A stretch of 14,789 nt of DNA from assembly GCA_030765455.1 (NCBI GenBank), contig JAVCCM010000093.1:1-14789 (forward strand). Reading direction: 5' to 3'. Positions 1 to 14,789 of the stretch are shown one piece after another. Positions within the stretch are counted from its first letter, which is position 1, and every line of letters starts with the position of its first letter. The notes below the pieces were generated by a model, which made no database searches, was not told where the DNA came from, and saw only the letters and a program-made list of their open reading frames with translations. Position numbers and translations under genes: made by a program. This DNA comes from Candidatus Electryonea clarkiae. Its GTDB lineage: Bacteria > Electryoneota > Electryoneia > Electryoneales > Electryoneaceae.

Positions 1-105
1 TGAAATATCAAGGGAAAGTAAACAGGAGCCGTATACGTGAACCGTACGTACGGTTCTGTGAGAGGGATGAGGCGAAGTAGATCACTCCGCCTCACCCTAC
101 TCGAT
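1..105 (+). mobile_element. Group II intron 3' terminus (domain V, then a domain VI-like hairpin). The intron body and any IEP gene would lie upstream of the window.
   Basis: Positions 26-56, gAGCcguauacgugaaccguacguacgguuc, reproduce the canonical domain V flanks GAGCCGUAU / ACGUACGGUUC. They include the AGC catalytic triad, G-U wobbles and the 2-nt AC bulge (46-47). A GC-rich imperfect hairpin follows (about 63-100, gagggatgaggcg...cgcctcaccc) with an unpaired A, consistent with domain VI. The end coordinate is approximate. Confidence 0.5.
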
Positions 106-227
106 TGTTTTTGTGATGATTCAATCGTAGATATAGTGATTACACTTTGGATGAATCCGCCAAAGGTTGGACAAGCCAAACTTTGTTTTTGCGTATTCAA
201 TAGTTTTGATTCAGGATTTGAAGAACA

Positions 228-263
228 AACCATGTTTGAAATCAAACATGGCCACCCGCCGCC
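228..263. repeat. Direct repeat copy 1 (aaccatgtttgaaatcaaacatggccacccgccgcc). It contains the hairpin ccatgtttga-aa-tcaaacatgg. On the minus strand this reads as hairpin followed by tttgttctt, an intrinsic-terminator-like signal directly after the SIR2 stop.
   Basis: The 30-nt core is identical to 1936-1965. The 10-bp perfect stem is visible in the sequence. It abuts the stop codon of the SIR2 gene (263-265). Confidence 0.8.
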
Positions 264-1798
264 TATATTTGAAAAACCTCATCAATTATTTTATACTTTT
301 TTAAGTCATAAGCGCAAAGTAATTTTCTGTAATTAGTTCCTGTTTTAAGTGAATTGTTGAAATTTCTAAGGAATTCTTCCGTATCTCCTAAAGTGACCTT
401 GTTCTCCATGATTGACCACAATATTGCATTTGTTTTATTGCTTGTGGTTACAGAATCGTCCTCTATAATATCTTGAATTTTTGAGTGTGATGTTTTACAA
501 TTTTCATTAATTTTGCTAAAACTATTTTCAATATTTGAAGATTGTTGTTTTTGTAATTTCTGTATATTTTCTATTTCTGAACATATTTGACCAAATCCAT
601 AAACTGGAAAATATTGCGAACTGTGTATCGTGTGTTTATTGATGAGTGTTAGTAATTGAGAGTTAGATTCATCCAATATGTTGAAATAATTTGACATCAT
701 TTCAGAAGATGTTTGATATTGGTAGCTAATTGTTTTCATTGACCCAATTGCAATTATTTTGTCGCTATTTCTTAGCGTATCCAAGTCTTCTGTGATTTTA
801 ACTTTAATATCTCCGCCTGAATATATTTCTCTTACAATTCTTTGAACTTTGCGTACATCCATGGCAGAAACAGGAAGCGATAATTTAGATAATGATTTAT
901 AAATTTCAATAAAATCGTCCGTTTTTATTTTATTAATTCTTATAGTGGAAAATCCTTCGATATCAATATCATGTTCTGTTATTTCATGTGATAATGAATT
1001 CTTTTCAAATTCTACCAATAGGAAATTTGCTCTGATTCTTTGAGCCTCATCAGAATTAAACTCAACATAGGTGAATATAGTTTTCAACAAACTCTTTATG
1101 TTCTTATCTCCTATGCCATATCCCAAAAATATTATTGGGTTATGAATAAATATCGACAGTAGTTGAGCTCGTATTAATTCATATTTATTTTCAAACAAAT
1201 CATAATCATTTTCAGTTATTATAATTTTCGATGGTTGCGTTGTACAACCATGAATTTTGTAAACAGAACCATAAGGATTACTAAGTAGAATGTCATTACC
1301 AATCAAAGGATTGAATTTAAAAACATTCTTTACAAGAGAGTCATAGTTTGTTGTTATGATAGAACCAATATTTTTTCTTGTTTTTTTAAATTCTGCAATT
1401 TCATCTTTCATTTCTTCTTTAAAATCTAAACATGAATGGATATTTGATATATATATTTTAAACCGACTCAGATTAATTCCTTTGTTCATTTGATCATAAA
1501 AATAATCATTAACATCTTTAAATTTACCATTGCGATCTTTTACCAATGAATCGTTAAAATCGTGTTCTAACAATTGAGCTATTTTATCATATGCAAATAT
1601 TCCGTCGTCTTCACATCTAGACTTTATATCTAAATAATATTCAGAATTATCTTTCAATTCAACAGAGATATATTTTAGCAAGTTATCCCACGTATATGAA
1701 TTATTTAGATATCTTAAACTGATTCCAGTTCCTATGAACAGGACAGGATGATTTCTATATTTAGAAATGAAGTCATGAACATTCATTAATAATCCCAT
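263..1798 (-). CDS. SIR2-like (SIR2_2 / DHS-like NAD-binding) domain protein with an uncharacterised C-terminal domain of about 250 aa. Candidate NADase-type anti-phage defence protein, possibly ThsA-like.
   Basis: The 511-aa ORF has an N-terminal HPVLFIGTGISLRYLNNSYTWDNLLKYIS (the GAG-S / PsW-LL motif of the SIR2_2 family). It also has IITTNYDSLV (catalytic Asn motif), KIHGC (catalytic His) and IIFLGYGIGDKN. Total length and the N-terminal SIR2 plus C-terminal alpha/beta-like region resemble Thoeris ThsA (SIR2-SLOG). The C-terminal domain is not identified. Confidence 0.8.
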   Translation of the reverse strand: MGLLMNVHDFISKYRNHPVLFIGTGISLRYLNNSYTWDNLLKYISVELKDNSEYYLDIKSRCEDDGIFAYDKIAQLLEHDFNDSLVKDRNGKFKDVNDYFYDQMNKGINLSRFKIYISNIHSCLDFKEEMKDEIAEFKKTRKNIGSIITTNYDSLVKNVFKFNPLIGNDILLSNPYGSVYKIHGCTTQPSKIIITENDYDLFENKYELIRAQLLSIFIHNPIIFLGYGIGDKNIKSLLKTIFTYVEFNSDEAQRIRANFLLVEFEKNSLSHEITEHDIDIEGFSTIRINKIKTDDFIEIYKSLSKLSLPVSAMDVRKVQRIVREIYSGGDIKVKITEDLDTLRNSDKIIAIGSMKTISYQYQTSSEMMSNYFNILDESNSQLLTLINKHTIHSSQYFPVYGFGQICSEIENIQKLQKQQSSNIENSFSKINENCKTSHSKIQDIIEDDSVTTSNKTNAILWSIMENKVTLGDTEEFLRNFNNSLKTGTNYRKLLCAYDLKKYKIIDEVFQI

Positions 1799-1935
1799 TG
1801 AAAATTGATCCGTAAAAAATGCGGATTAATTGTTTCCCGTCAGACGAGTGACCCTGTTGGCACCATGCCTACGTTGGATCTCTCAACGTGGTTATATTGT
1901 TATATTCGATAACGTTGATCAAGATTTGTAGAATA

Positions 1936-1973
1936 AACCATGTTTGAAATCAAACATGGCCACCCTCCCGCCC
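1936..1973. repeat. Direct repeat copy 2 (aaccatgtttgaaatcaaacatggccaccctcccgccc), immediately followed by caggttatccca (1974-1985). On the minus strand it is a terminator-like hairpin followed by tttattcta, after the stop of the 186-aa gene.
   Basis: 30/30 identity to copy 1, then a near-identical GC tail. It lies 14 nt 3' of the stop of ORF 1987..2547. Confidence 0.8.
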
Positions 1974-1986
1974 AGGTTATCCCAGG

Positions 1987-2547
1987 CTATGTTACTTGAA
2001 ATATTTGATCGTAAAGATCATACAAATGTGTAGTACCTAATTCTTCTAAAGTTACACTGCTATTCCAATTTAATTCGTGATGATCAAATGATTCATCATT
2101 TATTATTGTGTATGTTTTACCGGGTAATTTCAGTTTATGAACAATGCCAAAGCGTTCCCATTTCGTAATAAAGCGATCATGGGACAAATTTAAATTATAT
2201 AATTCAGAAGTAGAAAAATTTTCAATCTTTGAGGAAAGTTTAAAAGATGGTGCGACAAATAGTATTATTTTTGGTTTCAAAATGAGATCATTATAACTGA
2301 TATTTACTATGTCTGCTCCCAAACTTTTTGCGTAAATATATGTATCTTCCTCTGATTCAACTCGATCATTATAGAATTTTTTAAAGGAATAACAAGCATA
2401 TTTCATCATTATATTTGATGGGATTCCGGACCACATAAATCGGTGACAACTAAATCCAAATGGTTCAAAATGTTCTGAGAGTGTTTTCATCCACATTAAG
2501 GTAGATTTTCGTACTATTGCTCCAGGAAGTATAATCAATTGACTCAT
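1987..2547 (-). CDS. Hypothetical 186-aa soluble protein with no recognisable domain. Translationally coupled to the upstream membrane protein.
   Basis: ORF with an ATGA start/stop overlap with 2544..3644. No signal peptide or TM segment. I see no TIR, Macro or nuclease motif with confidence. Confidence 0.6.
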   Translation of the reverse strand: MSQLIILPGAIVRKSTLMWMKTLSEHFEPFGFSCHRFMWSGIPSNIMMKYACYSFKKFYNDRVESEEDTYIYAKSLGADIVNISYNDLILKPKIILFVAPSFKLSSKIENFSTSELYNLNLSHDRFITKWERFGIVHKLKLPGKTYTIINDESFDHHELNWNSSVTLEELGTTHLYDLYDQIFQVT

Positions 2548-3644
2548 TTTAATACTTTTTGTTTAAATAATTCGGAAAGCAGACTTACTACGAAGGGGGA
2601 TAGTAAAGGTAGCAGAAGCATTGTGTAAACATTCGCAAATAGCTTGAATTCAAACAATCGGGAATCAGTTTTTTGCAGCCCCTCATAGATAGTAAAAAAT
2701 CCTTGGTTTTTCAAGGTTTGAATTCTTCCAACAAAGTCGGACGATTTTAAATCCAAGGTGTTTATTCCATATTTACTGAATGTTTCTTTAACTGCATCAT
2801 CTTTGAATCGATTGAGCAAAACCTTTATCGGTTTGAAATACATTAAAAGGATAATTGGACTTAGAAGGAAAAATCCAAAAATCATCATTAGTAACTCTGG
2901 ATCTCCAAATAAGGTTTCAAGAGAAAATGTATCTTCCCAATTAAGAAATATGATAAGAAAATAGAATCCAAATATTGAATATATCATTACAATCCTTTGT
3001 CCAAGTCTAATTAAATTTTCAAGACCACATTTTTCATCTGGGAATAGTAATTTTGGTACTAAAACTGATTTATTGCATATATTTCGAACGAATCTTGCGA
3101 AAAAAATCGTATCAATGATTAGAATAATTAAATGATATGCGATGATTGCAAAGATTACTGCGTAATACCAACCACATACTGTAGGATTTCCATCTATTAG
3201 ATGGACATAATTAACATCTGCATTTTGTCCACCAAGCTGGATGATAGTGAATAAAAATACTATTGCCACAACTTCGATGTTAGCAAATATTGAATATTTA
3301 AGAGAAACTATTTTTCCATACTTAGTTCTATTAGGAATATCTAAAATGCCATTTGTTTCAAGATCTCCAAATACTTTTGATGTATCTTTGTAAAAACGTG
3401 ATGCTTGGTAAAAAAGTGCAGGAATCAGAAGGGTTCCTCCTACTAAAATAGTCAAATGGTCAATCAGGGGTTTCTCAATTTCAGCACTTGGAAGTAATGT
3501 TCCTTCAAACATTGAGATTATTACCTGGATGATAAAAGTAAGAAAAAATACAATAAATGTTAAAAGCCAAGAGGAGGGAGATATGACAACTTTGTCATAT
3601 ATTGGTGATCTCAGGAAGCGTCCATTAAATACTTTTTCAGGCAT
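2544..3644 (-). CDS. Hypothetical polytopic inner-membrane protein (about 7-8 predicted TM helices), family unknown.
   Basis: The 366-aa ORF has multiple 20-25-residue hydrophobic stretches (e.g. SWLLTFIVFFLTFIIQVIISMF, IEVVAIVFLFTIIQLGG, YYAVIFAIIAYHLIILIIDTIFF, LLMMIFGFFLLSPIILLMYF, VYTMLLLPLLSPFVVSLLSELF). Its stop overlaps the start of the 186-aa gene (ATGA at 2544-2547). No Abi/CAAX or other motifs recognised. Confidence 0.65.
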   Translation of the reverse strand: MPEKVFNGRFLRSPIYDKVVISPSSWLLTFIVFFLTFIIQVIISMFEGTLLPSAEIEKPLIDHLTILVGGTLLIPALFYQASRFYKDTSKVFGDLETNGILDIPNRTKYGKIVSLKYSIFANIEVVAIVFLFTIIQLGGQNADVNYVHLIDGNPTVCGWYYAVIFAIIAYHLIILIIDTIFFARFVRNICNKSVLVPKLLFPDEKCGLENLIRLGQRIVMIYSIFGFYFLIIFLNWEDTFSLETLFGDPELLMMIFGFFLLSPIILLMYFKPIKVLLNRFKDDAVKETFSKYGINTLDLKSSDFVGRIQTLKNQGFFTIYEGLQKTDSRLFEFKLFANVYTMLLLPLLSPFVVSLLSELFKQKVLK

Positions 3645-3855: not shown

Positions 3856-4113
3856 CTAGTCTGGTGGACCTATATCTTTTCTCTCTACTTTATCGACTGT
3901 ATCTACCGATTGCATATTACCCGGTGTTTCTGGATGTTTTTGGGTGTCTTCCATTACCCAGTTGGGGAGATCGAGTCCTTCCAGGTTCCGGATATTCTTC
4001 AAGCCGGAGAAAGTACCCCATAAACCGTTAACGAATTCGGCAGTGTTAGTCTTGCCGCTATCCCTGTTGCCGCCAAGGTTATCCCATGCTTCATTCCTAT
4101 TTTTGTATCGCAT
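3856..4113 (-). pseudogene. Orphan C-terminal fragment of flotillin (a duplicate of the 3' end of the gene at 5602..7062).
   Basis: The translated fragment ...WDNLGGNRDSGKTNTAEFVNGLWGTFSGLKNIRNLEGLDLPNWVMEDTQKHP... aligns to residues about 407-460 of the intact flotillin (VVWDNLGGGRDSGKTNTAEFVNGLWGTFPGLKNVLNMVGLDLPNWVMEDTQKHP). There is no SPFH domain or TM segment. Homology starts abruptly at 4087. Confidence 0.75.
3932..4087. repeat. Imperfect direct repeat copy A (about 156 bp, about 88% identical to 5696-5851), derived from the flotillin 3' coding region. It ends in ccgccaaggttatccca.
   Basis: By-eye alignment shows the first about 41 nt identical, a diverged middle, a 31-nt identical block ataaaccgttaacgaattcggcagtgttagt, then an identical 18-nt end. 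Confidence 0.8.
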
Positions 4114-4534
4114 GTAAAATCTTCAATTTTATCTCTTCTGAATCGAACTTGCCATTGATCAAAGCTGTTATTATTTCCAACAGTAGATCTTTATCAATTC
4201 GACCTGCAGCGACATGGTAACTGATATTTTCCATTTCTCGAATAAAACTTCCAGCGATGAATAGATATCCATTAAGTAACAAAAATTGTGCCCCGAGGGA
4301 AATTGCTATTCTTTTATTTCCATCTTGAAAGCAGTGAAACTTGTTTGCCGAGTAAAACAAATGTGTAAGTTTCTCCTCGAAAGTAGAGTAATAAACGTCA
4401 TTCTGAATATGCTCAAGAACACTGTCCAGTAAGCCTATATCCATGAGGCCATCAGCACCTCCTCCACTAACCTCAACAGTTTTCTTATGAATCTCAACTG
4501 CCTGGTCGAGAGTGGGATAAATAATTCTCCTCAC
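4097..4534 (-). CDS. doc: Doc (death-on-curing) / Fic-family toxin.
   Basis: 145 aa. HCFQDGNKRIAISLGAQFLL matches the Doc Fic motif H-x-F-x-D-x-N-K-R (P1 Doc: HIFNDANKRTA). The N-terminal LDQAVEIHKKTVEVSGGGADGLMDIGLLDSVLEHIQ resembles the Doc N-terminus. There is a 4-bp overlap with the upstream gene. Confidence 0.8.
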   Translation of the reverse strand: MRRIIYPTLDQAVEIHKKTVEVSGGGADGLMDIGLLDSVLEHIQNDVYYSTFEEKLTHLFYSANKFHCFQDGNKRIAISLGAQFLLLNGYLFIAGSFIREMENISYHVAAGRIDKDLLLEIITALINGKFDSEEIKLKILHAIQK

Positions 4535-5550
4535 TCTCGTTCCTTCAATCGTTTGAATACATCTTTTGCCTCTTCAAGTCGTTCAGCAAGCTCTTTACTT
4601 TTTTCGCCAAGAAAACGCTCAAATTCATCGGATTGAAGCGGCGTGATATACTCCTTCAGTTGAAGATGTAATGCATCACGAAAAGCCAGATCGCGACTTG
4701 CCATCTTCTGCCGTGCTCGCTCGATGAGAGGCTTCCAGTGAGGTTGGGATTCAAATTCTGAGAATAGATGATCAACTTCCCAGGAGTCCAGTTTTCTATC
4801 TACCTTGTAAAATGCTTCCTCTAATGCTTTAGCAAACCCATATTCATACGATGAAATAAGATCAAGAATTTCGGAGTAAAACGTGTCTCGTACTTTTTCA
4901 TTTGCTTGTAATTTCAAAATATTGCGATACTCTTCAGCATTTTCACGGAATATACTTAGATAGATTTTATTCGTATAGATTGGGTACTTGATGTTTCCCA
5001 TATCTACAAAATCACGTAATGCGTCTGTAAACTCCTTACGGTAGTCTTCCTCCTGAAAATATGCTATGATGAAATCTTCATCGCGTTGGTTGATATATTT
5101 GGTGCCTCCGCCTGATTTTATATTGATTGTATCAATAACAATATCAAGTATTGTCTGTCGAAGCAGCCTGGCTCGTTCGCTTTCTGTTAGCAACATTGCT
5201 ATATTCAAAAATGCCCGGAAATTGAATGCCCCTAATCGTGTAGTTTTGGTAGGGACATTGATGTCCTTACCAAACTGTCCCTCTACAGCTAACATGAAGG
5301 TACTCAGCCGTTTCCCTCGAAGAACCACGTAACCGTTTTTTGTCAATTCATCGGAATATTTGCCGATATATCGATTCACGGTTCGAATGTCGATTTCAAA
5401 AAATGCAGCTACTTGCTCTCTTATAACCCAGTATGAATTTTCAAACTTGATGCCTTTGATCTCTACTGCATTTTGGATTTCTTTCAGGGCATAGGGATTA
5501 TTAAGAACATTTTGCCTGTCTATTTGTGATTGTGTAAGATTCTTATTCAT
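4531..5550 (-). CDS. RhuM-like (virulence protein RhuM family; ORF6N/KilA-N-type DNA-binding N-terminus) protein. Probable partner or antitoxin-like component for Doc.
   Basis: 339 aa. VIREQVAAFFEIDIRTVNRYIGKY resembles the RhuM-family motif (approximately LMAELFQKDVRTINEHLKNIY). The size is typical of RhuM (about 340 aa). It is translationally coupled (ATGA-type overlap at 4531-4534) to doc. The family assignment rests on recall of the family consensus, not on a search. Confidence 0.55.
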   Translation of the reverse strand: MNKNLTQSQIDRQNVLNNPYALKEIQNAVEIKGIKFENSYWVIREQVAAFFEIDIRTVNRYIGKYSDELTKNGYVVLRGKRLSTFMLAVEGQFGKDINVPTKTTRLGAFNFRAFLNIAMLLTESERARLLRQTILDIVIDTINIKSGGGTKYINQRDEDFIIAYFQEEDYRKEFTDALRDFVDMGNIKYPIYTNKIYLSIFRENAEEYRNILKLQANEKVRDTFYSEILDLISSYEYGFAKALEEAFYKVDRKLDSWEVDHLFSEFESQPHWKPLIERARQKMASRDLAFRDALHLQLKEYITPLQSDEFERFLGEKSKELAERLEEAKDVFKRLKERE

Positions 5551-5601: not shown

Positions 5602-7062
5602 CTAGCTTTCCTCGTCCACTGTTTCAGATGAATGCATATTTTCTTTCTTCACTTCAGCTGGAGTATCCGCAGTTGCTGTTGTAGCTTGCGTAGCCGGATG
5701 TTTTTGGGTGTCTTCCATTACCCAGTTGGGGAGATCCAATCCTACCATGTTCAGGACATTTTTTAAGCCGGGGAAAGTACCCCATAAACCGTTAACGAAT
5801 TCGGCAGTGTTAGTTTTGCCGCTATCCCTGCCGCCGCCAAGGTTATCCCAGACTACGACATTACTCAGATCAAGACCCTGTACCGTATCACCTACAATTT
5901 TGGTTAAATCGGTGATCTTGTCGGCGATCATCAGTTGTACAGCGCGGTCAGGATCATTACCTGCGGCGTTGACGATCTCCTTCAAACCATTAGCTGTTTT
6001 TTCAAGGATTTCAAATGCACCGCGTCCCTGGGCTTCCATCTTGGCGAATATGGCGTCTGCTTCACCCTTCGCCTCACGGCGTAATTTCTCAGCTTCAGCT
6101 TCGGCAGCTATTTCGATCTTCTGTTTGTTGATTTCAGCCGGGACAACATCCTCTGCACGTTGACGGGCACGTTCCATATCGGCACGGGAATCCTCAGCTT
6201 TTTGCTCTGCCTGGAAGGCTTCCCTTTCGGCGTCAGCCTGCTTGGTACGTTCGGCGGCGTAACCAAGTCTCTCAGCTTCCGCGACCTTTTCACGACGTTG
6301 GGCGTTACTGTTTTCCTCGGTTACTTTGGCAACGTTTTCACCTGTCACCGCATCAGCGTTGGCACTGGCGACGTTGACGCGCTGATCACGTACAGCGTTG
6401 GCGCGTCCTACCTCACCATCACGTTCCTGCTCGGCGACTTTTATCTTCGCTTCGTTGATCGCGCGAGCCGCGGCTTCCTTACCAAGGGCTTCGATATATC
6501 CGCTTTCGTCCTTGATATCGGTGATATTCACATTGATCAGTTTCAAACCGATCTTTTTCAGCTCTGTTTCAACGCTCTGCGTGATATTCTGGACGAATTT
6601 ATCACGGTCAACATTGATTTCTTCGATTCTCATGGTAGCGATAACACTACGGAGCTGACCGAGGATGATCTCTTCAGCGAGGGCTTCAACCTGGGTGTGT
6701 TTCAGGCCGAGGAGACGTTCAGCGGCATTGCTCATTATCGCCAGGGTGGTGGAGATACCTACAGTGAACACCGAAGGAACGTCAACACGAATATTCTGCA
6801 AACTCAACGCTCCCCGAAGATTGATTCCAATCTGCATCGGGCTGAGGCTGAGGAACTGGTAAGACTGGATCAGTGGCCAGATGAATGCTGTTCCGCCATG
6901 AATGCATTGAGAGCTGCGTGACTCGCCGTCACTGCCCTTTCCGACCTTTCCGTAAACGACAAGTACCTGGTCACTCGGGCAGCGTTTTACCCGGCTTAAT
7001 GTGGCAATAAGTAAAGAAAATGCAAGAATAAAAATAACTACAAGTGCGGTTAAACCAATCAT
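5602..7062 (-). CDS. yqiK: Flotillin / SPFH (band 7) domain protein, YqiK-like.
   Basis: 486 aa. It has an N-terminal TM segment (LTALVVIFILAFSLLIATL) and an SPFH region. A long Ala/Glu/Lys/Arg-rich coiled-coil (AEAERLGYAAERTKQADAEREAFQAEQKAED...EAEAEKLRREAKGEADAI) is typical of flotillins. It sits downstream of an NfeD-like gene, as in yqiJ-yqiK. Confidence 0.85.
   Translation of the reverse strand: MIGLTALVVIFILAFSLLIATLSRVKRCPSDQVLVVYGKVGKGSDGESRSSQCIHGGTAFIWPLIQSYQFLSLSPMQIGINLRGALSLQNIRVDVPSVFTVGISTTLAIMSNAAERLLGLKHTQVEALAEEIILGQLRSVIATMRIEEINVDRDKFVQNITQSVETELKKIGLKLINVNITDIKDESGYIEALGKEAAARAINEAKIKVAEQERDGEVGRANAVRDQRVNVASANADAVTGENVAKVTEENSNAQRREKVAEAERLGYAAERTKQADAEREAFQAEQKAEDSRADMERARQRAEDVVPAEINKQKIEIAAEAEAEKLRREAKGEADAIFAKMEAQGRGAFEILEKTANGLKEIVNAAGNDPDRAVQLMIADKITDLTKIVGDTVQGLDLSNVVVWDNLGGGRDSGKTNTAEFVNGLWGTFPGLKNVLNMVGLDLPNWVMEDTQKHPATQATTATADTPAEVKKENMHSSETVDEES
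5696..5851. repeat. Imperfect direct repeat copy B (within the intact flotillin 3' coding region), ending in ccgccaaggttatccca.
   Basis: See copy A. The repeat encodes WDNLGGG...HP of the intact flotillin. Confidence 0.8.
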
Positions 7063-11228: not shown

Positions 11229-12401
11229 CTAAAAAGAAATACCAAATTCAATCCATTCAGTATTAGTTACAGGGTGACCTTCGCCTGCATCCCAAAATGA
11301 TTTTGAATAATTGATATTCGTCCTTGTCATTATTAATTTGTAAAACTTTCCGTAAGATTTCCCCTGTTTTTGTGATCTGGTATATAGATAATTTGTTATT
11401 CCATTGCTCTTGATTGTGAAACCAGAGGTGGCGTTGAAGAGTGATCCCCAGGTATCATAGTAATTACCCCATCTGTATAAAAACGAATTAAAGAAATTGA
11501 CCTCGCGTCCTACACCTCCGGTGTTTATCCACTCTTTGCTAACATTGTGTACTTTTTGTTTGTTGAAATCCTGTGCATATATAAATGAGAATAGATGGTA
11601 ATCCGGCAGCTCACAGCGAAACTCAAGTCCATATCCCTTTCGTTTTATCGCTGGAAGTGGAACATTATATTGTAAATCACAGCCCAAATTTGAGTTTGAA
11701 TAACCGTAACTTGGAATGATATCGACCCTAAAAGGTTTTATTGATTCCAGCGGTTTATAATTAAATACTTCAGTGAGTGCATTGTTTAGCGGTAAACGAA
11801 AAAGGACACCCCAATCATATGCTTCAGCGCTTTGATCATTTTCTTCGTAAGAATGAAAATCCGCCCGGTGTAATTTGATTGCGTCAGATTTGTATCCCAC
11901 TCCCATTTCGATGAAATGTCGTAATCCGACAGACAAGGCATAGGATTCATTTTTATCCCAAGGTTCAATCTGGTAAATAAGATCCCCTTCATTATTCCAG
12001 ACTTCAACTCTACCGAGATTTAAAAAGCTTCGGGAATATTCAATCCCGATTGAAATCTGCCTTGTTCTCTCACCTTCCTCTTTATAGAAAGTCCAGCCAG
12101 CAAATAAGCTTGTATAATTAAAATAGAGGTCGTCTATCTTAAATGCTGGCAAATAATCAACATAAGAATGTGATGCTGCAAAGTTGTGGTCAAGGCTGAA
12201 TATTCCCATACTTCCGGGATTAAAATGACCTGACATTGGATCAACCAGCGCAGTTTGAGCTTCACCCATACCTGTTGCCCTGGCGCCAGGTGAAATGAGT
12301 AAAAAGAAAGGAGCAGTCTCATTGATATGGGTTTCTCCATTGGATACAATCGGGAGGAGTGTAATCAGGGTAATCAAGAAAAGAAGATAACCGTACCTCA
12401 T
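11229..12401 (-). CDS. Outer-membrane beta-barrel protein, FadL/PorV-like (PorV/PorQ-type), paralog 1.
   Basis: Signal peptide from M at 12401 (MRYGYLLFLITLITLLPIVSNG; the longer ORF to 12470 is probably not used). An N-terminal motif PGARATGMGEAQTALVDPMSGHFNPG resembles the FadL-family plug motif (sARalGMGgA..A.aDD.sA...NPAg). An aromatic-rich beta-strand pattern, and a C-terminal ...WIEFGISF with a terminal Phe (OMP signature). About 60-65% identical to paralog 2. Confidence 0.7.
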   Translation of the reverse strand: MRYGYLLFLITLITLLPIVSNGETHINETAPFFLLISPGARATGMGEAQTALVDPMSGHFNPGSMGIFSLDHNFAASHSYVDYLPAFKIDDLYFNYTSLFAGWTFYKEEGERTRQISIGIEYSRSFLNLGRVEVWNNEGDLIYQIEPWDKNESYALSVGLRHFIEMGVGYKSDAIKLHRADFHSYEENDQSAEAYDWGVLFRLPLNNALTEVFNYKPLESIKPFRVDIIPSYGYSNSNLGCDLQYNVPLPAIKRKGYGLEFRCELPDYHLFSFIYAQDFNKQKVHNVSKEWINTGGVGREVNFFNSFLYRWGNYYDTWGSLFNATSGFTIKSNGITNYLYTRSQKQGKSYGKFYKLIMTRTNINYSKSFWDAGEGHPVTNTEWIEFGISF

Positions 12402-12561
12402 AAAAGACAAGATATCTATATCTTTTCGAAGATTTTGAAGAGTAATCAATCTAATAGAATCATTAAGCATTTTACAGTCTTTCCTTGGTTAACTTTTACT
12501 TAAGCGGTTCACTTTGCTAAATTAATCTTATGTGTTAGGGTTTAGATATGAAACCAGCCAG

Positions 12562-13749
12562 TTAAAATGAAATACCAAGTTCTATCCATTCAGTATCAGT
12601 TAAAGGCTGACCTTCGCCTGCGTGAAATAATGATCTGGAATATTTAAAATTCATGCGAGTCATCACGAAATCATACAACTCGCCTTTAGCCCATTCCTGG
12701 TGTTGAGAACTAAGGTGAATGATTTTTAATATTCCGCTACTTTGAAAAGTGAAACCGGTTGTTGATCGTGAAGCTCGTCCCCAGGTGTCATAATAGTTAC
12801 CCCAACGATATATGAAAGAATCGAAGAAAGTAATTTCACGACCTACACCGGATGTTTCTATCCATTCTTTACTCCTGAGATCGGCTCTATCCCTATTAAT
12901 ATCATGAGCATAAATGAAGCCAAGCAACGGAACAACCGGTAGGTCAAAACGAAATTCAAGGGCATACCCACTGCGATGCACTTCCGGGAGAGGATCATCA
13001 TACATCTCATCCCCGCCCAGATTTGATTTTGAAAATCCATAACTTGGGATGAAATCGATTAAGAAGGGATATATTGATTCAGACACATCGTAATGGAGTC
13101 CCTCTTTTAATACAGTATTCGTGGGCAGGCGGATCAATATTCCCCAGTCATAAGCTTTGGCGTTCACTTCATCATCATATTCAGGATTACCAATATTAGA
13201 AAACTCGCTCAGATGGCTCGTGATGTAATTCAATTTATAGCCGATTCCCACTTCAGCCAGGTAGCGAAAACCGATAGAAACGCCGTAAGAGTAATTGTTC
13301 TCCCACGATTCAAAAGAACCTAGGTCTTCGTTGTTTTCACCCCTGCGTTCGGTTTTCCCAAGGTTCAGAAATCGCCTTGTCACTTCAATTCCACCAGATA
13401 TTTCGAGGGGATTATCAGGTTGCTTTTCATACAACTTCCATCCGGCAGATAATTGAGAATAGTTGAGATATAAATCATCTAAATTAAACCTAGGCAACCA
13501 GTCAGCACTGGTATAAGAGTATGAATAATTATGATCAAGACTGAATACACCTTTACTTCCGGCATTAAAGTGCCCCGACATGGGATCGACCAATGCCACC
13601 TGTGCGTCACCCATACCTGTCGCCCTGGCACCCGGAGTTATCAACATAAAACGGGCACTGGCAGCATTAGCGTGATTGTTTGAAAATAATAGAAACAGCA
13701 GAAGAATAAAAATTAATGATCTGGTACTATCGTTTGTGAATATTTTCAT
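12562..13749 (-). CDS. Outer-membrane beta-barrel protein, FadL/PorV-like, paralog 2.
   Basis: A clear signal peptide MKIFTNDSTRSLIFILLLFLLFSNNHANA, PGARATGMGDAQVALVDPMSGHFNAG, and C-terminal WIELGISF. Confidence 0.75.
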   Translation of the reverse strand: MKIFTNDSTRSLIFILLLFLLFSNNHANAASARFMLITPGARATGMGDAQVALVDPMSGHFNAGSKGVFSLDHNYSYSYTSADWLPRFNLDDLYLNYSQLSAGWKLYEKQPDNPLEISGGIEVTRRFLNLGKTERRGENNEDLGSFESWENNYSYGVSIGFRYLAEVGIGYKLNYITSHLSEFSNIGNPEYDDEVNAKAYDWGILIRLPTNTVLKEGLHYDVSESIYPFLIDFIPSYGFSKSNLGGDEMYDDPLPEVHRSGYALEFRFDLPVVPLLGFIYAHDINRDRADLRSKEWIETSGVGREITFFDSFIYRWGNYYDTWGRASRSTTGFTFQSSGILKIIHLSSQHQEWAKGELYDFVMTRMNFKYSRSLFHAGEGQPLTDTEWIELGISF

Positions 13750-13776
13750 ATTATCTCCCGATATTGAGTCAAAAAA

Positions 13777-14789
13777 TTAAAATGAAATACCAAGTTCTAT
13801 CCAAGCGGAATCAGATATATCATAATTGCTGCCTGCTTTCCAGAATGACCTGGAATATTTGAAATTCAGCCGGTTCATTACAAAATTGTACAATTCGCCT
13901 TCAGCCCATTCCTGATCCTGCGTGGCGAGATGAATTATTTTTAGTATTCCTTTACTTTGCAGTGAATAACCCGTTGTGGACTTGAAAAGGTGTCCCTCGG
14001 TGTCATAATAATTACCCCAGCGATAGACGAATGAATCAAAAAACGAGAACTCCCTGCCAACGCCCCCGGTTTTGTATCCATTATCTCCTGAAGGGATGTC
14101 ATACCTGATATCGTTATCTCCTGAAGGGATGTCATACCTGATATCGTTAAAATCCTGGGTGTATATAAAAGCAAGCAAAGGCACAACCGGCAGATCAATT
14201 CGAAATTCCAAAGCATAACCTCTTCGATTTATTTCCGGGAGAGGTTGTCCATATACTTTATTGTCTCCCAGGTTAGAATTCGAATAGCCAAAACTTGGAA
14301 TAATATCAATAGTGAAAGGGTCAATTAACCTTTGAGTATTTATATTATACACCTCTTTCAGTGCATTATTTATCGGCAACCTTAACAGGATACCCCAATC
14401 ATATGCTCTCGCATTACGATCATTCCCGGAATTTGGAAAATTGCTTCCCAAATGTGATGTAATAAAATCAGTTTTGTAACCGATTCCCAACTCGGCGATA
14501 TACCGCAATCCAATCGAAACTCCATAAGTGTAATTCCGCTCCCATAAATTTCCAGTACTAATGATTCCATATAAATCATCTCGCACTACATACTCACCTT
14601 CATCAATAAATCTTTTTGTAACTTCCAGTCCGCCTGATATTTCCAGAGGATATCCAATCCTCTTATTATGTGTGCCCAGCATGGAGTGGACGCCTGATTT
14701 TGTTAATACACCCCGATCTGGGGGAAGTAAAACCGATTGGCAAGGGCGTTGCTGGCAACGGCAGGGTCTGAAGGCAGCCATAGGCAGCA
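13777..14789 (-). CDS. Outer-membrane beta-barrel protein paralog 3, 5'-incomplete or N-terminally replaced (open to the window edge).
   Basis: Homology to paralog 2 runs from about residue 43 (YPLEISGG; about 14655 downward) to the C-terminal WIELGISF. The region 14660-14789 is unrelated to the paralog N-termini (no signal peptide, no PGARATGMG motif) and the frame stays open to the end of the window. It contains an in-frame 33-bp tandem duplication. Confidence 0.6.
   Translation of the reverse strand, partial: LPMAAFRPCRCQQRPCQSVLLPPDRGVLTKSGVHSMLGTHNKRIGYPLEISGGLEVTKRFIDEGEYVVRDDLYGIISTGNLWERNYTYGVSIGLRYIAELGIGYKTDFITSHLGSNFPNSGNDRNARAYDWGILLRLPINNALKEVYNINTQRLIDPFTIDIIPSFGYSNSNLGDNKVYGQPLPEINRRGYALEFRIDLPVVPLLAFIYTQDFNDIRYDIPSGDNDIRYDIPSGDNGYKTGGVGREFSFFDSFVYRWGNYYDTEGHLFKSTTGYSLQSKGILKIIHLATQDQEWAEGELYNFVMNRLNFKYSRSFWKAGSNYDISDSAWIELGISF
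14081..14146. repeat. Perfect 33-bp tandem duplication (2 copies of ttatctcctgaagggatgtcatacctgatatcg), in frame within paralog 3, encoding DIRYDIPSGDN twice.
   Basis: Copy 1 is 14081-14113 and copy 2 is 14114-14146, identical at all 33 positions. The protein shows FNDIRYDIPSGDNDIRYDIPSGDNGYK, in a segment that is variable between paralogs. Confidence 0.9.

What the first reader, a model, noticed from the sequence alone, without database searches (positions are those of the whole stretch)
228..1973. SIR2-domain gene bracketed by 36-bp direct repeats carrying a hairpin (cassette-like insertion)
Two copies of aaccatgtttgaaatcaaacatggccaccc(+GC-rich tail) occur at 228-263 and 1936-1973. The 30-nt core is identical. 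Each copy has a 10-bp perfect stem with a 2-nt loop. The SIR2 ORF (263..1798) fills the space between them exactly: copy 1 abuts its stop codon, and copy 2 sits just 3' of the stop of the preceding 186-aa gene. Read on the minus strand, each is a hairpin followed by a T-rich stretch, which is terminator-like. Two genes in a row ending in the same 36-bp module suggests that the SIR2 gene arrived as a cassette that duplicated or carried this module, rather than two independent terminators. A group II intron end lies 120 bp further on. Together this looks like a recombination hotspot that captured a defence gene.
Basis: seen in the sequence. Interest (0 to 1): 0.8.

Follow-up and report, generated by a model that had tools for sequence, protein, structure and literature searches.

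The report
Dispersed intergenic hairpin repeat flanking SIR2
The two hairpin repeats around the SIR2 defence gene are real, but they are copies of a short repeat found between many unrelated genes in this bacterial lineage, so they do not mark the ends of a gene cassette; the gene itself was acquired from elsewhere and sits in an insertion hotspet behind a flotillin gene.

Summary
A 50-nt direct repeat lies at 211-260 and 1919-1968 (92% identical, with a 30-nt identical core and a 10-bp hairpin) and brackets a full-length SIR2 gene.

The hairpin is the 5' module of a modular intergenic repeat about 190 nt long, found in Candidatus Electryonea clarkiae and its relatives.
- A covariance model finds 12 members in about 99 kb of lineage DNA.
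- They lie behind unrelated genes (YgiQ radical SAM, UPF0149/SecC, DUF4062) and, in both orientations, in a divergent intergenic region.
- Variant copies change their stems in a compensatory way.
- The two window copies are no more alike (52/60) than copies from different contigs (51-54/60). They have host-like GC and different architectures.

SIR2 does look foreign. It matches the PADLOC candidate PDC-S25, has 27.6% GC against a 38-50% core (GC3 22% against 34-50%), and has 62-73% identical homologues across phyla and on plasmids.

The clearer insertion scars are three nested copies of the flotillin 3' end that share one boundary (5855, 4091, 1989). They separate PDC-M59, an unknown two-gene block, and the SIR2 segment.

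A group II intron interrupts repeat copy M1.

Overall this is an ordinary kind of repeat in an undescribed family. Interest is modest.

The parts
104..262 (-). Repeat copy M1. This is the long form of the roughly 190-nt intergenic repeat: the 5' hairpin module (about 203-262) plus the middle part. It is cut at about element position 158 by the group II intron. Its 5' edge (TATAG|GCGG) supplies the SIR2 stop codon.
   Evidence: nhmmer with a full-element profile, E 1e-55. 86.7% identical to L005:5847-6005 and 82.9% to L005:2729-2890. CM R1 scores 70.1 bits at 215-260. The flank ATTATAGGCGGG is shared with L005 copies.
1863..1970 (-). Repeat copy M2. This is the short form: the 5' hairpin module (1903-1968) joined directly to the 3'-terminal module (1863-1901: hairpin ACGTTG..CAACGT followed by GGCATGG). 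It lacks about 85 nt of the middle part.
   Evidence: nhmmer hits to element positions 2-68 (E 2.5e-12) and 153-191 (E 0.0045). CM R1 scores 68 bits at 1923-1968. The + strand hairpin 1869-1891 is flagged as terminator-like.
263..1798 (-). SIR2-domain gene, PADLOC candidate single-gene system PDC-S25. The likely true start is at 1786 (507 aa). Its composition is foreign.
   Evidence: PDLC04968 E 3.8e-159 over the full length. Pfam SIR2_2. GC 27.6%, GC3 22%. Homologues at 62-73% identity in many phyla and on plasmids.
1968..1989 (-). Third, minimal copy (C) of the flotillin 3'-end core (TAGCCTGGGATAACCTGGGCGG). It contains the stop codon of the 186-aa gene and is fused to M2.
   Evidence: Repeat D9. 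The 17-mer CCGCCMAGGTTATCCCA occurs 3 times against 0 expected. Boundary alignment.
1987..3644 (-). Low-GC two-gene block: a 366-aa multi-pass membrane protein (2544-3644) and a 186-aa minimal alpha/beta-hydrolase-like protein (1987-2547) that overlap by 4 nt. Function unknown; a candidate defence pair by its context only.
   Evidence: GC 30-31.5%, GC3 22-24%. No Pfam or PADLOC hit. The 186-aa family has only 12 representatives among 1.84 billion proteins, with invariant Ser75, Asp124 and His156.
3856..4091 (-). Second copy (B) of the flotillin 3' end. It is a decaying remnant that still reads as an 85-aa ORF (3856-4113).
   Evidence: 81% identical over 215 nt to 5636-5850 (D3). 68% amino-acid identity, with substitutions at positions conserved in relatives.
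4097..5550 (-). PDC-M59 candidate two-gene system: M59A (4531-5550, 339 aa) and M59B, a Fic/Doc protein (4097-4534, 145 aa).
   Evidence: PADLOC PDLC04717 E 1.7e-107 and PDLC04718 E 6e-41. Pfam Fic. M59A homologues at 48-67% identity in 9 IMG/VR contigs.
5602..7062 (-). Flotillin/SPFH gene. Its 3' end (A, 5602-5855) is the reference copy of the duplicated segment. The duplication boundary is at 5855.
   Evidence: Pfam Band_7 E 7e-30. The identical protein is named in NCBI as from Candidatus Electryonea clarkiae. Boundary.
1..105 (+). 3' end (domains V-VI) of a group II intron. It is inserted antisense into M1, and the contig ends inside it.
   Evidence: RF00029, 48.1 bits, E 5e-07. Homology of M1 to the uninterrupted L005 copies stops at window position about 104.

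Best explanation
The two 36-50-nt hairpin modules are two independent members of a lineage-specific, modular, interspersed intergenic repeat of Candidatus Electryonea clarkiae and related Electryoneota.

Shown:
- The full element is about 190 nt.
- It begins with a conserved head (GGCGGGTGGCC) that runs into a 9-10-bp hairpin followed by GGTTTNTTCT. It ends with a second hairpin preceded by an A-run, which reads as hairpin plus T-run on the other strand.
- The 5' module, the 3' module, or both occur alone or together in many intergenic gaps.

Inferred:
- The 5' hairpin usually lies just after a stop codon in the sense orientation. It most likely acts as a transcription terminator or 3'-end stabilising stem.
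- The 3' hairpin most likely does the same for the opposite strand.
- The family spreads or is homogenised in the way REP/BIME/BOX-type elements are.

SIR2 (PDC-S25) is a horizontally acquired stand-alone defence-type gene that now sits between two such host elements. The element's own edge supplies its stop codon.

The locus is an insertion hotspot behind the flotillin gene. The real insertion scars are three nested copies of the flotillin 3' end that share one upstream boundary. They delimit the PDC-M59 block and the 366/186-aa block. This is the pattern left when small elements integrate at one site in the 3' end of a gene and each brings a replacement 3' end. No recombinase is visible.

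A group II intron later inserted into M1, after the element's 3' hairpin and T-run.
For: Family membership:
- An exact-stem scan of JGI metagenomes found true copies with conserved flanks in three other contigs (L004, L005 with two copies, L008).
- nhmmer with the full element found full copies at L005:2729-2919 and 5848-6034. It found partial 5' or 3' modules in nearly every intergenic gap of the 7-kb L005 contig.
- Covariance model R1 found 12 members in 99 kb. Two in L017 (41.8 and 21.2 bits) were not used to build it.

Unrelated neighbours:
- Upstream genes include YgiQ radical SAM, UPF0149/SecC, DUF4062 and a T9SS-tail protein.
- The three L004 copies lie in both orientations between divergent genes.

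Structure:
- 4 of 9 stem pairs show double compensatory changes (15 cells). 94% of cells are paired, and 0 of 500 shuffles reach this.
- The L010 variant has a T7 tail and a G.U pair that works only in the sense strand.
- M1 is flagged as terminator-like on the - strand, and the M2 3' hairpin on the + strand.

No recent duplication:
- M1 against M2 is 52/60. All cross-contig pairs are 51-54/60.
- M1 is the long form and M2 the short form.
- Module GC is 38-43%, against 27.6% for SIR2.

SIR2 foreign and mobile.

Flotillin scars.
Against: - Copy number in this genome is unknown, because the window is the whole contig.
- A scan of 185,579 representative genomes found no true copy of the exact stem. 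'Abundant genome-wide' therefore rests on four short contigs that were themselves selected for carrying the stem (ascertainment bias).
- Within the 14.8-kb window, the only two copies are the ones flanking SIR2.
- The U-tract after the hairpin is weak, and the terminator scan as a whole is not enriched over shuffles (5 found against 4.2 expected).
- No transposase (RAYT) or recombinase was seen, so the means of spread is unknown.
- The taxonomic assignment of L004, L005 and L008 rests only on shared repeats and similar GC (40-43%).
Confidence: 0.7

Rival explanations
1. Cassette reading, close to the first reader's. SIR2 moved as a unit with one copy of the element. For example, a circular [short-form element + SIR2] could have integrated by homologous (Campbell-type) or site-specific recombination within a resident element, leaving one copy on each side. 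Under this reading the dispersed repeats act as portable recombination sites that shuffle genes within the lineage's pangenome.
For: - SIR2 is bracketed tightly: 2 nt from M1, with the M2 3' module 77 nt upstream of the start.
- SIR2 is foreign in composition.
- The only two copies in the window flank it.
- A crossover inside the shared 5' module would yield just the observed short form upstream and long form downstream.
- Genes in L005 and in the window are co-oriented, with elements between them.
Against: - M1 and M2 are no more similar to each other than to copies in other contigs (52/60 against 51-54/60), so any such event is old or did not happen.
- The elements also follow large, housekeeping-type genes and occur in both orientations in a divergent promoter region.
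- The element ends do not fit the attC core motifs (RYYYAAC / GTTRRRY), judged by reading the sequences.
- The predicted folds show only local hairpins and no pairing between element ends.
- No integrase lies in the window.
- SIR2 homologues elsewhere are not in this context.
Confidence: 0.15
2. The hairpin module is a structured RNA element (a 3'-UTR regulatory motif or small RNA) selected for an RNA function other than termination. On this reading it is not a selfish or dispersed DNA repeat.
For: - Compensatory stem changes.
- A conserved single-stranded head and tail.
- A position right after stop codons in the sense orientation for most copies.
- A G.U pair that works only in the sense strand in L010.
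Against: - No Rfam family matches, even at E <= 1.
- The L004 and L017 copies lie in tandem or inverted clusters in long intergenic regions, not behind genes.
- One copy (L005:2730) has a decayed stem but keeps the rest of the element.
- The mosaic composition is typical of DNA repeats.
Confidence: 0.1
3. The two copies are unrelated terminators that resemble each other by chance or convergence.
For: Both are hairpins followed by a T-rich stretch on the coding strand.
Against: A 30-nt exact match has an expectation of 0. Similarity extends through the non-pairing flanks and into about 70 nt. The same flanks occur in other contigs.
Confidence: 0.01

Closest known systems
REP / REPIN and BIME elements (repetitive extragenic palindromes of Enterobacteria and Pseudomonas; REPINs as described in PMC3116915 and PMC3337134)
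   Same: Short extragenic palindromes with a conserved single-stranded head next to the stem. Many dispersed copies lie mostly just after genes. Stems vary with compensation between subfamilies. Copies occur in tandem or inverted clusters (L004 1446-1490 on the + strand with 1579-1624 on the - strand; L017 tandem pair). They combine with other modules in a mosaic, as BIMEs do.
   Different: The conserved head is GGGTGGCC, not GTAG. The full unit is about 190 nt with two unrelated hairpins, not a doublet of two like REPs. No RAYT transposase was seen or could be looked for. Copy number in a complete genome is unknown. The host is a candidate phylum (Electryoneota) where no such family has been described (no mention in PMC9324843).
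BOX / ERIC / Correia-type modular intergenic repeats (recalled from general knowledge, not tested here)
   Same: Elements of 100-200 nt built from modules (here 5', middle and 3') that occur in different combinations in intergenic regions and can carry terminator-like or promoter-like signals.
   Different: No sequence similarity was tested. No terminal inverted repeats or target-site duplications are evident at the element ends.
Integron gene cassettes and attC sites
   Same: Co-oriented genes are each followed by a conserved structured repeat. A group II intron is inserted antisense into the repeat, as IIC introns are in attC sites (abstract of PMC7923331). Defence genes are the cargo.
   Different: There are no R''/R' core motifs and no pairing between the element ends. 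The stems are perfect, without extrahelical bases. Copies occur in both orientations and behind large housekeeping-type genes. No integron integrase is present.
Integrative elements that target the 3' end of a gene and carry a replacement 3' end, including tandem arrays of cargo-only remnants (tRNA-targeting islands; recalled from general knowledge)
   Same: Three direct copies of the flotillin 3' end share one upstream boundary. The proximal copy keeps the gene intact, and the distal copies decay or are truncated. Defence-type cargo lies between the copies.
   Different: The target is a flotillin/SPFH protein gene. The units are only 1.8 and 2.1 kb and carry no integrase. The last copy is cut down to 22 nt and fused to the repeat element.
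PADLOC candidate system PDC-S25 (single-gene SIR2_2 protein)
   Same: Full-length HMM match (E 3.8e-159). A single gene of about 500 aa. Homologues lie in defence-island contexts and on plasmids.
   Different: Nothing notable. Its defence activity is a candidate annotation that was not tested here, and the only library paper found naming it is not about it.

Membership tests
REP/REPIN elements | Short (20-40 nt) extragenic palindrome present in many dispersed copies | tested here: met
   A 9-10-bp stem. 12 members in 99 kb across 6 contigs, all outside convincing genes; the two L017 copies lie inside a called 174-aa ORF with no Pfam hit. The true copy number per genome is unknown.
REP/REPIN elements | Conserved GTAG-type head recognised by a RAYT transposase, and a RAYT gene in the genome | tested here: inconclusive
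   A conserved head exists, but it is GGGTGGCC rather than GTAG. No RAYT lies in the held loci, and the genome is not available for searching.
REP/REPIN elements | Inverted doublets (REPINs) | tested here: inconclusive
   There is one inverted pair in L004 (1446-1490 +, 1579-1624 -) with near-identical stems and a spacer of about 88 nt. Most copies are single.
Mosaic intergenic repeats (BIME/BOX-like) | Modules that occur separately and in different combinations | tested here: met
   5' module alone: L005:880, L008:3913, L004:1635. 3' module alone: L005:105, 1903, 6586. 5' plus 3' modules: M2. Full element: L005:2729, L005:5848, M1.
Intrinsic (Rho-independent) terminator | G+C-rich stem directly followed by a U-tract on the transcribed strand | tested here: inconclusive
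   M1 passes the simple scan (11 pairs, 4 of them GC, tail TGTTCTTCAA). M2 does not pass. The scan total is not above shuffles. The L010 variant has a clean T7 tail. Transcript 3' ends cannot be tested here.
Integron attC site / gene cassette | R'' (RYYYAAC) and R' (GTTRRRY) core sites at the two ends, pairing into an imperfect bulged hairpin | tested here: not met
   Judged by reading the copies; no dedicated motif scan was run. The 5' end is GGCGGGTGGCC and the 3' end is GT(T/G/A)GGCATG. Folds show only local perfect hairpins.
Integron attC site / gene cassette | Integron integrase and attI next to a co-oriented array | tested here: not met
   No integrase or recombinase domain is found in the eight ORFs between 263 and 7897 that were scanned against both libraries; the other ORFs scanned against one library also show none. 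The contig ends at the intron, so one further away cannot be excluded.
Site-specific integrative element at the 3' end of a gene | Direct repeats of the target's 3' end flanking the insert, with a common boundary | tested here: met
   Copies at 5855, 4091 and 1989 begin within 3 nt of the same position (TAGYCTGGGATAACC). The 17-mer occurs 3 times against 0 expected.
Site-specific integrative element at the 3' end of a gene | Integrase gene within the element | tested here: not met
   None lies between the repeats.
PADLOC PDC-S25 | Full-length match to the PDC-S25 model as a stand-alone gene | tested here: met
   PDLC04968 E 3.8e-159, residues 5-503 on profile positions 8-515 of 517. The neighbours are separate units.
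Thoeris (ThsA/ThsB) | ThsA with SIR2 plus SLOG/STALD domains, and an adjacent TIR protein ThsB | tested here: not met
   Only the SIR2 core matches ThsA models (E 1e-15, residues 143-307). There is no TIR/ThsB hit among the neighbours.
Group IIC intron | Insertion just downstream of a terminator-like stem-loop (abstract of PMC1702495) | tested here: inconclusive
   By homology with the intact L005 copies, the insertion point lies about 7-10 nt after the element's 3' hairpin, within its T-run, on the intron strand. The 5' exon and most of the intron lie outside the window, so the intron class cannot be assigned.

The most novel reading that the evidence does not exclude
The flotillin 3' end is a dedicated attachment site at which very small defence cassettes (1.8-2.1 kb) without an integrase stack in tandem. 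Each would bring a replacement 3' end, mobilised in trans by a recombinase encoded elsewhere. The lineage's modular hairpin repeats would serve as portable terminator and recombination modules that let single foreign genes such as SIR2 be swapped in and out. Together these would make an integron-like cassette system built from different parts, in a candidate phylum.
Probability: 0.15. Interest if true: 0.65.

Novelty: new member of a known kind. Interest (0 to 1): 0.33.

Why it matters
For the scan, this is a caution. A pair of identical hairpin modules around a defence gene looks like a cassette boundary, but here it is background repeat content of the host.

Three things remain of value.
1. 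It gives a first description of a REP/BIME-like modular intergenic repeat family in Candidatus Electryoneota, where none has been reported. The covariance model could be run on the MAGs, and the repeat explains contig breaks.
2. The flotillin gene's 3' end appears to be a reused insertion site that carries candidate defence systems (PDC-M59, an unknown membrane-protein + hydrolase pair, PDC-S25). Ace Lake time-series metagenomes could be used to follow this hotspot.
3. A group II intron uses the repeat's terminator-like hairpin as a landing site. That would let intron copy number scale with repeat copy number.

Tried and rejected
- Exact-stem scan of 185,579 representative genomes: one hit, a different palindrome (CTAGCCCATGTTTGACGTCAAACATGGGCTAG). 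It was rejected as unrelated, along with L006, L007 and L009 from the metagenome scan.
- Viral contig scan for the module: none found.
- Viral contig scan for the flotillin 3' fragment: none found.
- Search for an empty site in close relatives: the nearest flotillin relatives are only 79% and 71% identical. One has different downstream genes (HTH + 142 aa, then ClpB). The contigs of the other end 50-180 nt after the stop codon. No empty site could be obtained.
- Exact-protein look-ups of SIR2, flotillin and the 198-aa protein returned only the same contig. The look-up of the 186-aa protein also returned a 1.1-kb contig that ends at the centre of the M2 hairpin. That is an assembly artefact at a palindrome and is uninformative.
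- Orthology of M1 with L005:5848 as an 'unoccupied' flank: rejected. M1 is 86.7% identical to that copy and 82.9% to its paralogue L005:2729, which is too small a difference to support orthology.
- Rfam at relaxed thresholds: nothing matches the element.
- attC reading: rejected on motif and fold (and reading of the sequences).
- Thoeris: rejected.
- Single-sequence AlphaFold of the 186-aa protein: pLDDT 31, unusable, so no fold search was run.
- Profile search of the 186-aa family against PDB sequences: no significant hit.
- Assembly chimera as the source of the duplications: considered unlikely. The repeats share only about 30-40-nt exact runs, far below the k=141 suggested by the contig name, and the NCBI MAG appears to hold a contig of the same length (14,789 nt).
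Full report
**Source**

The window is essentially a whole metagenome contig (ENA ERZ27315495 k141_363495, 14,833 nt). Look-ups of its proteins return only that contig. NCBI names the identical flotillin and SIR2 proteins as coming from a MAG of Candidatus Electryonea clarkiae. This is an Ace Lake (Antarctica) member of the candidate phylum Electryoneota (PMC9324843). The rest of the genome was not available.

**Observation**

- The 30-mer occurs exactly twice, at 228-257 and 1936-1965, with none expected by chance.
- The ungapped repeat is 50 nt: 211-260 against 1919-1968, 92% identical.
- The hairpin is a perfect 10-bp stem.
- Copy 1 (M1) ends 2 nt from the SIR2 stop codon.
- Copy 2 (M2) is 18 nt from the stop codon of the 186-aa gene.
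- The group II intron end is real: RF00029, 24-105 on the + strand, 48.1 bits.

So the description holds.

**What the module is**

An exact-stem scan of JGI metagenomes returned three further contigs (L004, L005, L008). Their copies share not only the stem but also the non-pairing flanks: GGCGGGTGGCC before it and GGTTTNTTCTNCAAATCNTGG after it. The other hits were a different palindrome.

Alignment shows that the hairpin is the 5' end of an element of about 190 nt.
- L005 holds two full copies (2729-2919 and 5848-6034), 81% identical to each other.
- M1 is a third full-type copy, 87% and 83% identical to them. Its homology stops abruptly at window position about 104, where the intron begins.
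- M2 is a short form. Its 5' module (1903-1968) is joined directly to the element's 3'-terminal module (1863-1901).
- In the 7-kb L005 contig, pieces of the element lie in nearly every intergenic gap: 105-139, 880-938, 1903-1939, 2729-2919, 5848-6034 and 6586-6645.

The genes upstream of copies are unrelated: a 231-aa protein, UPF0149/SecC, YgiQ radical SAM, DUF4062, and a T9SS-tail protein. In L004, three copies lie in both orientations between two divergently transcribed genes.

A covariance model of the 5' module, run with filters off over 99 kb, finds 12 members. Two are new tandem copies in a more distant, higher-GC relative (L017). They keep the head GGGTGGCC and the tail GGTYTCT but have different stems.

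Across the 12 members:
- four of the nine stem pairs show compensatory double changes (15 cells);
- 94% of cells pair;
- no shuffle or slid control comes close.

Rfam has no match for the element.

This is the signature of a REP/BIME/BOX-like dispersed, modular intergenic repeat. It is not the signature of a cassette-specific site.

**Are M1 and M2 products of one insertion event?**

- Their 5' modules match at 52 of 60 positions. Every pair of copies taken from different contigs matches at 51-54 of 60.
- The '30-nt identical core' is conserved across the family. Part of that conservation is built in, because the search required the stem.
- M1 is the long form and M2 the short form.
- Their GC (38% and 43%) is like the host core. 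SIR2 has 27.6% (GC3 22%).

So nothing indicates a recent duplication, or import of the module together with SIR2.

An old homologous-recombination event within the shared 5' module cannot be excluded. It could have occurred between a resident long-form element and an incoming short-form element plus SIR2 from a related genome. I give that reading about 0.15.

**SIR2**

- It matches the PADLOC candidate single-gene system PDC-S25 over its full length (E 3.8e-159). Only its SIR2 core matches ThsA.
- Homologues of about 498 aa at 62-73% identity occur in Gammaproteobacteria, Bacteroidota, Ignavibacteria and Firmicutes.
- They occur as solo genes in other defence-type neighbourhoods.
- They also occur on plasmids, including a 5.6-kb Pantoea plasmid on which the only features under the match are SIR2 and a replication protein.
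- The alignment places the likely start at the ATG at 1786. The C-terminus runs about five residues past where most homologues end.
- The stop codon TAG lies in the motif TATAG|GCGG. That motif also precedes L005 copies, where it is not a stop codon. The stop codon is therefore supplied by the host element's edge.

**The hotspot**

The stronger insertion evidence was not in the finding. The flotillin/SPFH gene (5602-7062, - strand) has its last 254 nt duplicated at 3856-4091, at 81% identity. That copy is a decaying 85-aa ORF with substitutions at positions conserved in relatives. A 22-nt piece recurs at 1968-1989, fused directly to M2.

All three copies begin within 3 nt of the same position (TAGYCTGGGATAACC).

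- Between copies A and B lies PDC-M59 (M59A plus a Fic/Doc protein).
- Between B and C lies a low-GC pair: a 366-aa membrane protein and a 186-aa protein.
- After C come M2, SIR2 and M1.

The stop codon of the 186-aa gene is the TAG inside flotillin copy C.

A shared boundary with the intact copy nearest the gene is what repeated site-specific integration into a gene's 3' end leaves behind. However, no integrase is present in the window. The units are only 1.8 and 2.1 kb. The mechanism is therefore inferred, not shown.

Relatives did not give an empty site. The closest flotillin (79%) has other genes downstream. The contigs of the next closest (71%) end just after the gene in three assemblies.

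**How it most likely works**

The 5' hairpin sits just after stop codons in the sense orientation in most copies. It is followed by a moderately U-rich tail, and by a clean T7 tail in the L010 variant. The 3' hairpin is preceded by an A-run, so on the other strand it reads as a stem plus T-run.

The simple scan flags M1 on the - strand and the M2 3' hairpin on the + strand. The scan as a whole is not enriched over shuffles.

I therefore take the element to be a two-faced terminator or insulator module that has spread through intergenic regions. Confidence in the terminator function is about 0.5. Confidence that it is a dispersed repeat is about 0.85.

**The intron**

By homology with the intact L005 copies, the group II intron entered M1 about 7-10 nt after the 3' hairpin, within its T-run, on the intron's strand. 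That is the kind of site IIC introns use (abstract of PMC1702495). The intron's class cannot be assigned from 100 nt.

**Comparison and novelty**

The element works like REP/BIME or BOX-type repeats. It fails or cannot be tested on the REP-specific features (GTAG head, RAYT). It does not meet the attC criteria.

SIR2 is an ordinary member of PDC-S25.

The flotillin-end duplications resemble tandem remnants at tRNA-type integration sites, but with a protein-gene target and no integrase.

Overall this is a new member of known kinds, in a phylum where none of this has been described.

**Verdict**

Interest is 0.33.

Noticed in passing
window 5602-5855, 3856-4091, 1968-1989: Three nested direct copies of the flotillin gene's 3' end share one upstream boundary and separate three defence-type blocks. 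This is the pattern of repeated site-specific insertion into a gene's 3' end, but no integrase is present.
   Followed up: partly
window 1987-3644 (- strand): A low-GC operon of a 366-aa multi-pass membrane protein and a 186-aa protein from a very rare family. That family has 12 representatives among 1.84 billion proteins and invariant Ser, Asp and His residues in an alpha/beta-hydrolase-like arrangement. It has no Pfam or PADLOC match. It sits between two candidate defence systems.
   Followed up: partly
window 1-105 (+ strand) within M1 (104-262): The group II intron 3' end is inserted antisense into the repeat element. By homology with intact copies, the site is a few nucleotides after the element's 3' hairpin and within its T-run, which suggests IIC-like targeting of this repeat family. 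The contig ends inside the intron.
   Followed up: partly
window 4097-5550 (- strand); loci L020-L028: The PDC-M59 pair (339-aa M59A plus a Fic/Doc protein). M59A has homologues at 48-67% identity on nine IMG/VR viral contigs, so this candidate system is often carried by phages or prophages.
   Followed up: no
window 11229-14781 and 14081-14146: Three tandem PorV/PorQ-like outer-membrane paralogues (413, 395 and 334 aa). A perfect 33-nt tandem duplication lies inside the third.
   Followed up: no
L017:19295-19335 and 19530-19570 (- strand reading): A second, unrelated repeat (GTCATTGCGARGACGCCGCAGGCGGACGAAGCAATCTCG) occurs twice in the same long intergenic region that holds the two tandem hairpin-module copies. 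This points to repeat-rich intergenic 'junkyards' in the relatives.
   Followed up: no
L011, L012, L013 contig ends; L019 end: Three independent assemblies of a 71%-identical flotillin relative all break 50-180 nt after the flotillin stop codon. A contig from another sample breaks exactly at the centre of the M2 hairpin. Either variability or palindromes disrupt assembly at these points.
   Followed up: partly
L004:1446-1490 (+) and 1579-1624 (-): An inverted pair of hairpin modules with near-identical variant stems (TGACTTG and AGACTTG), about 88 nt apart. It resembles a REPIN doublet.
   Followed up: no
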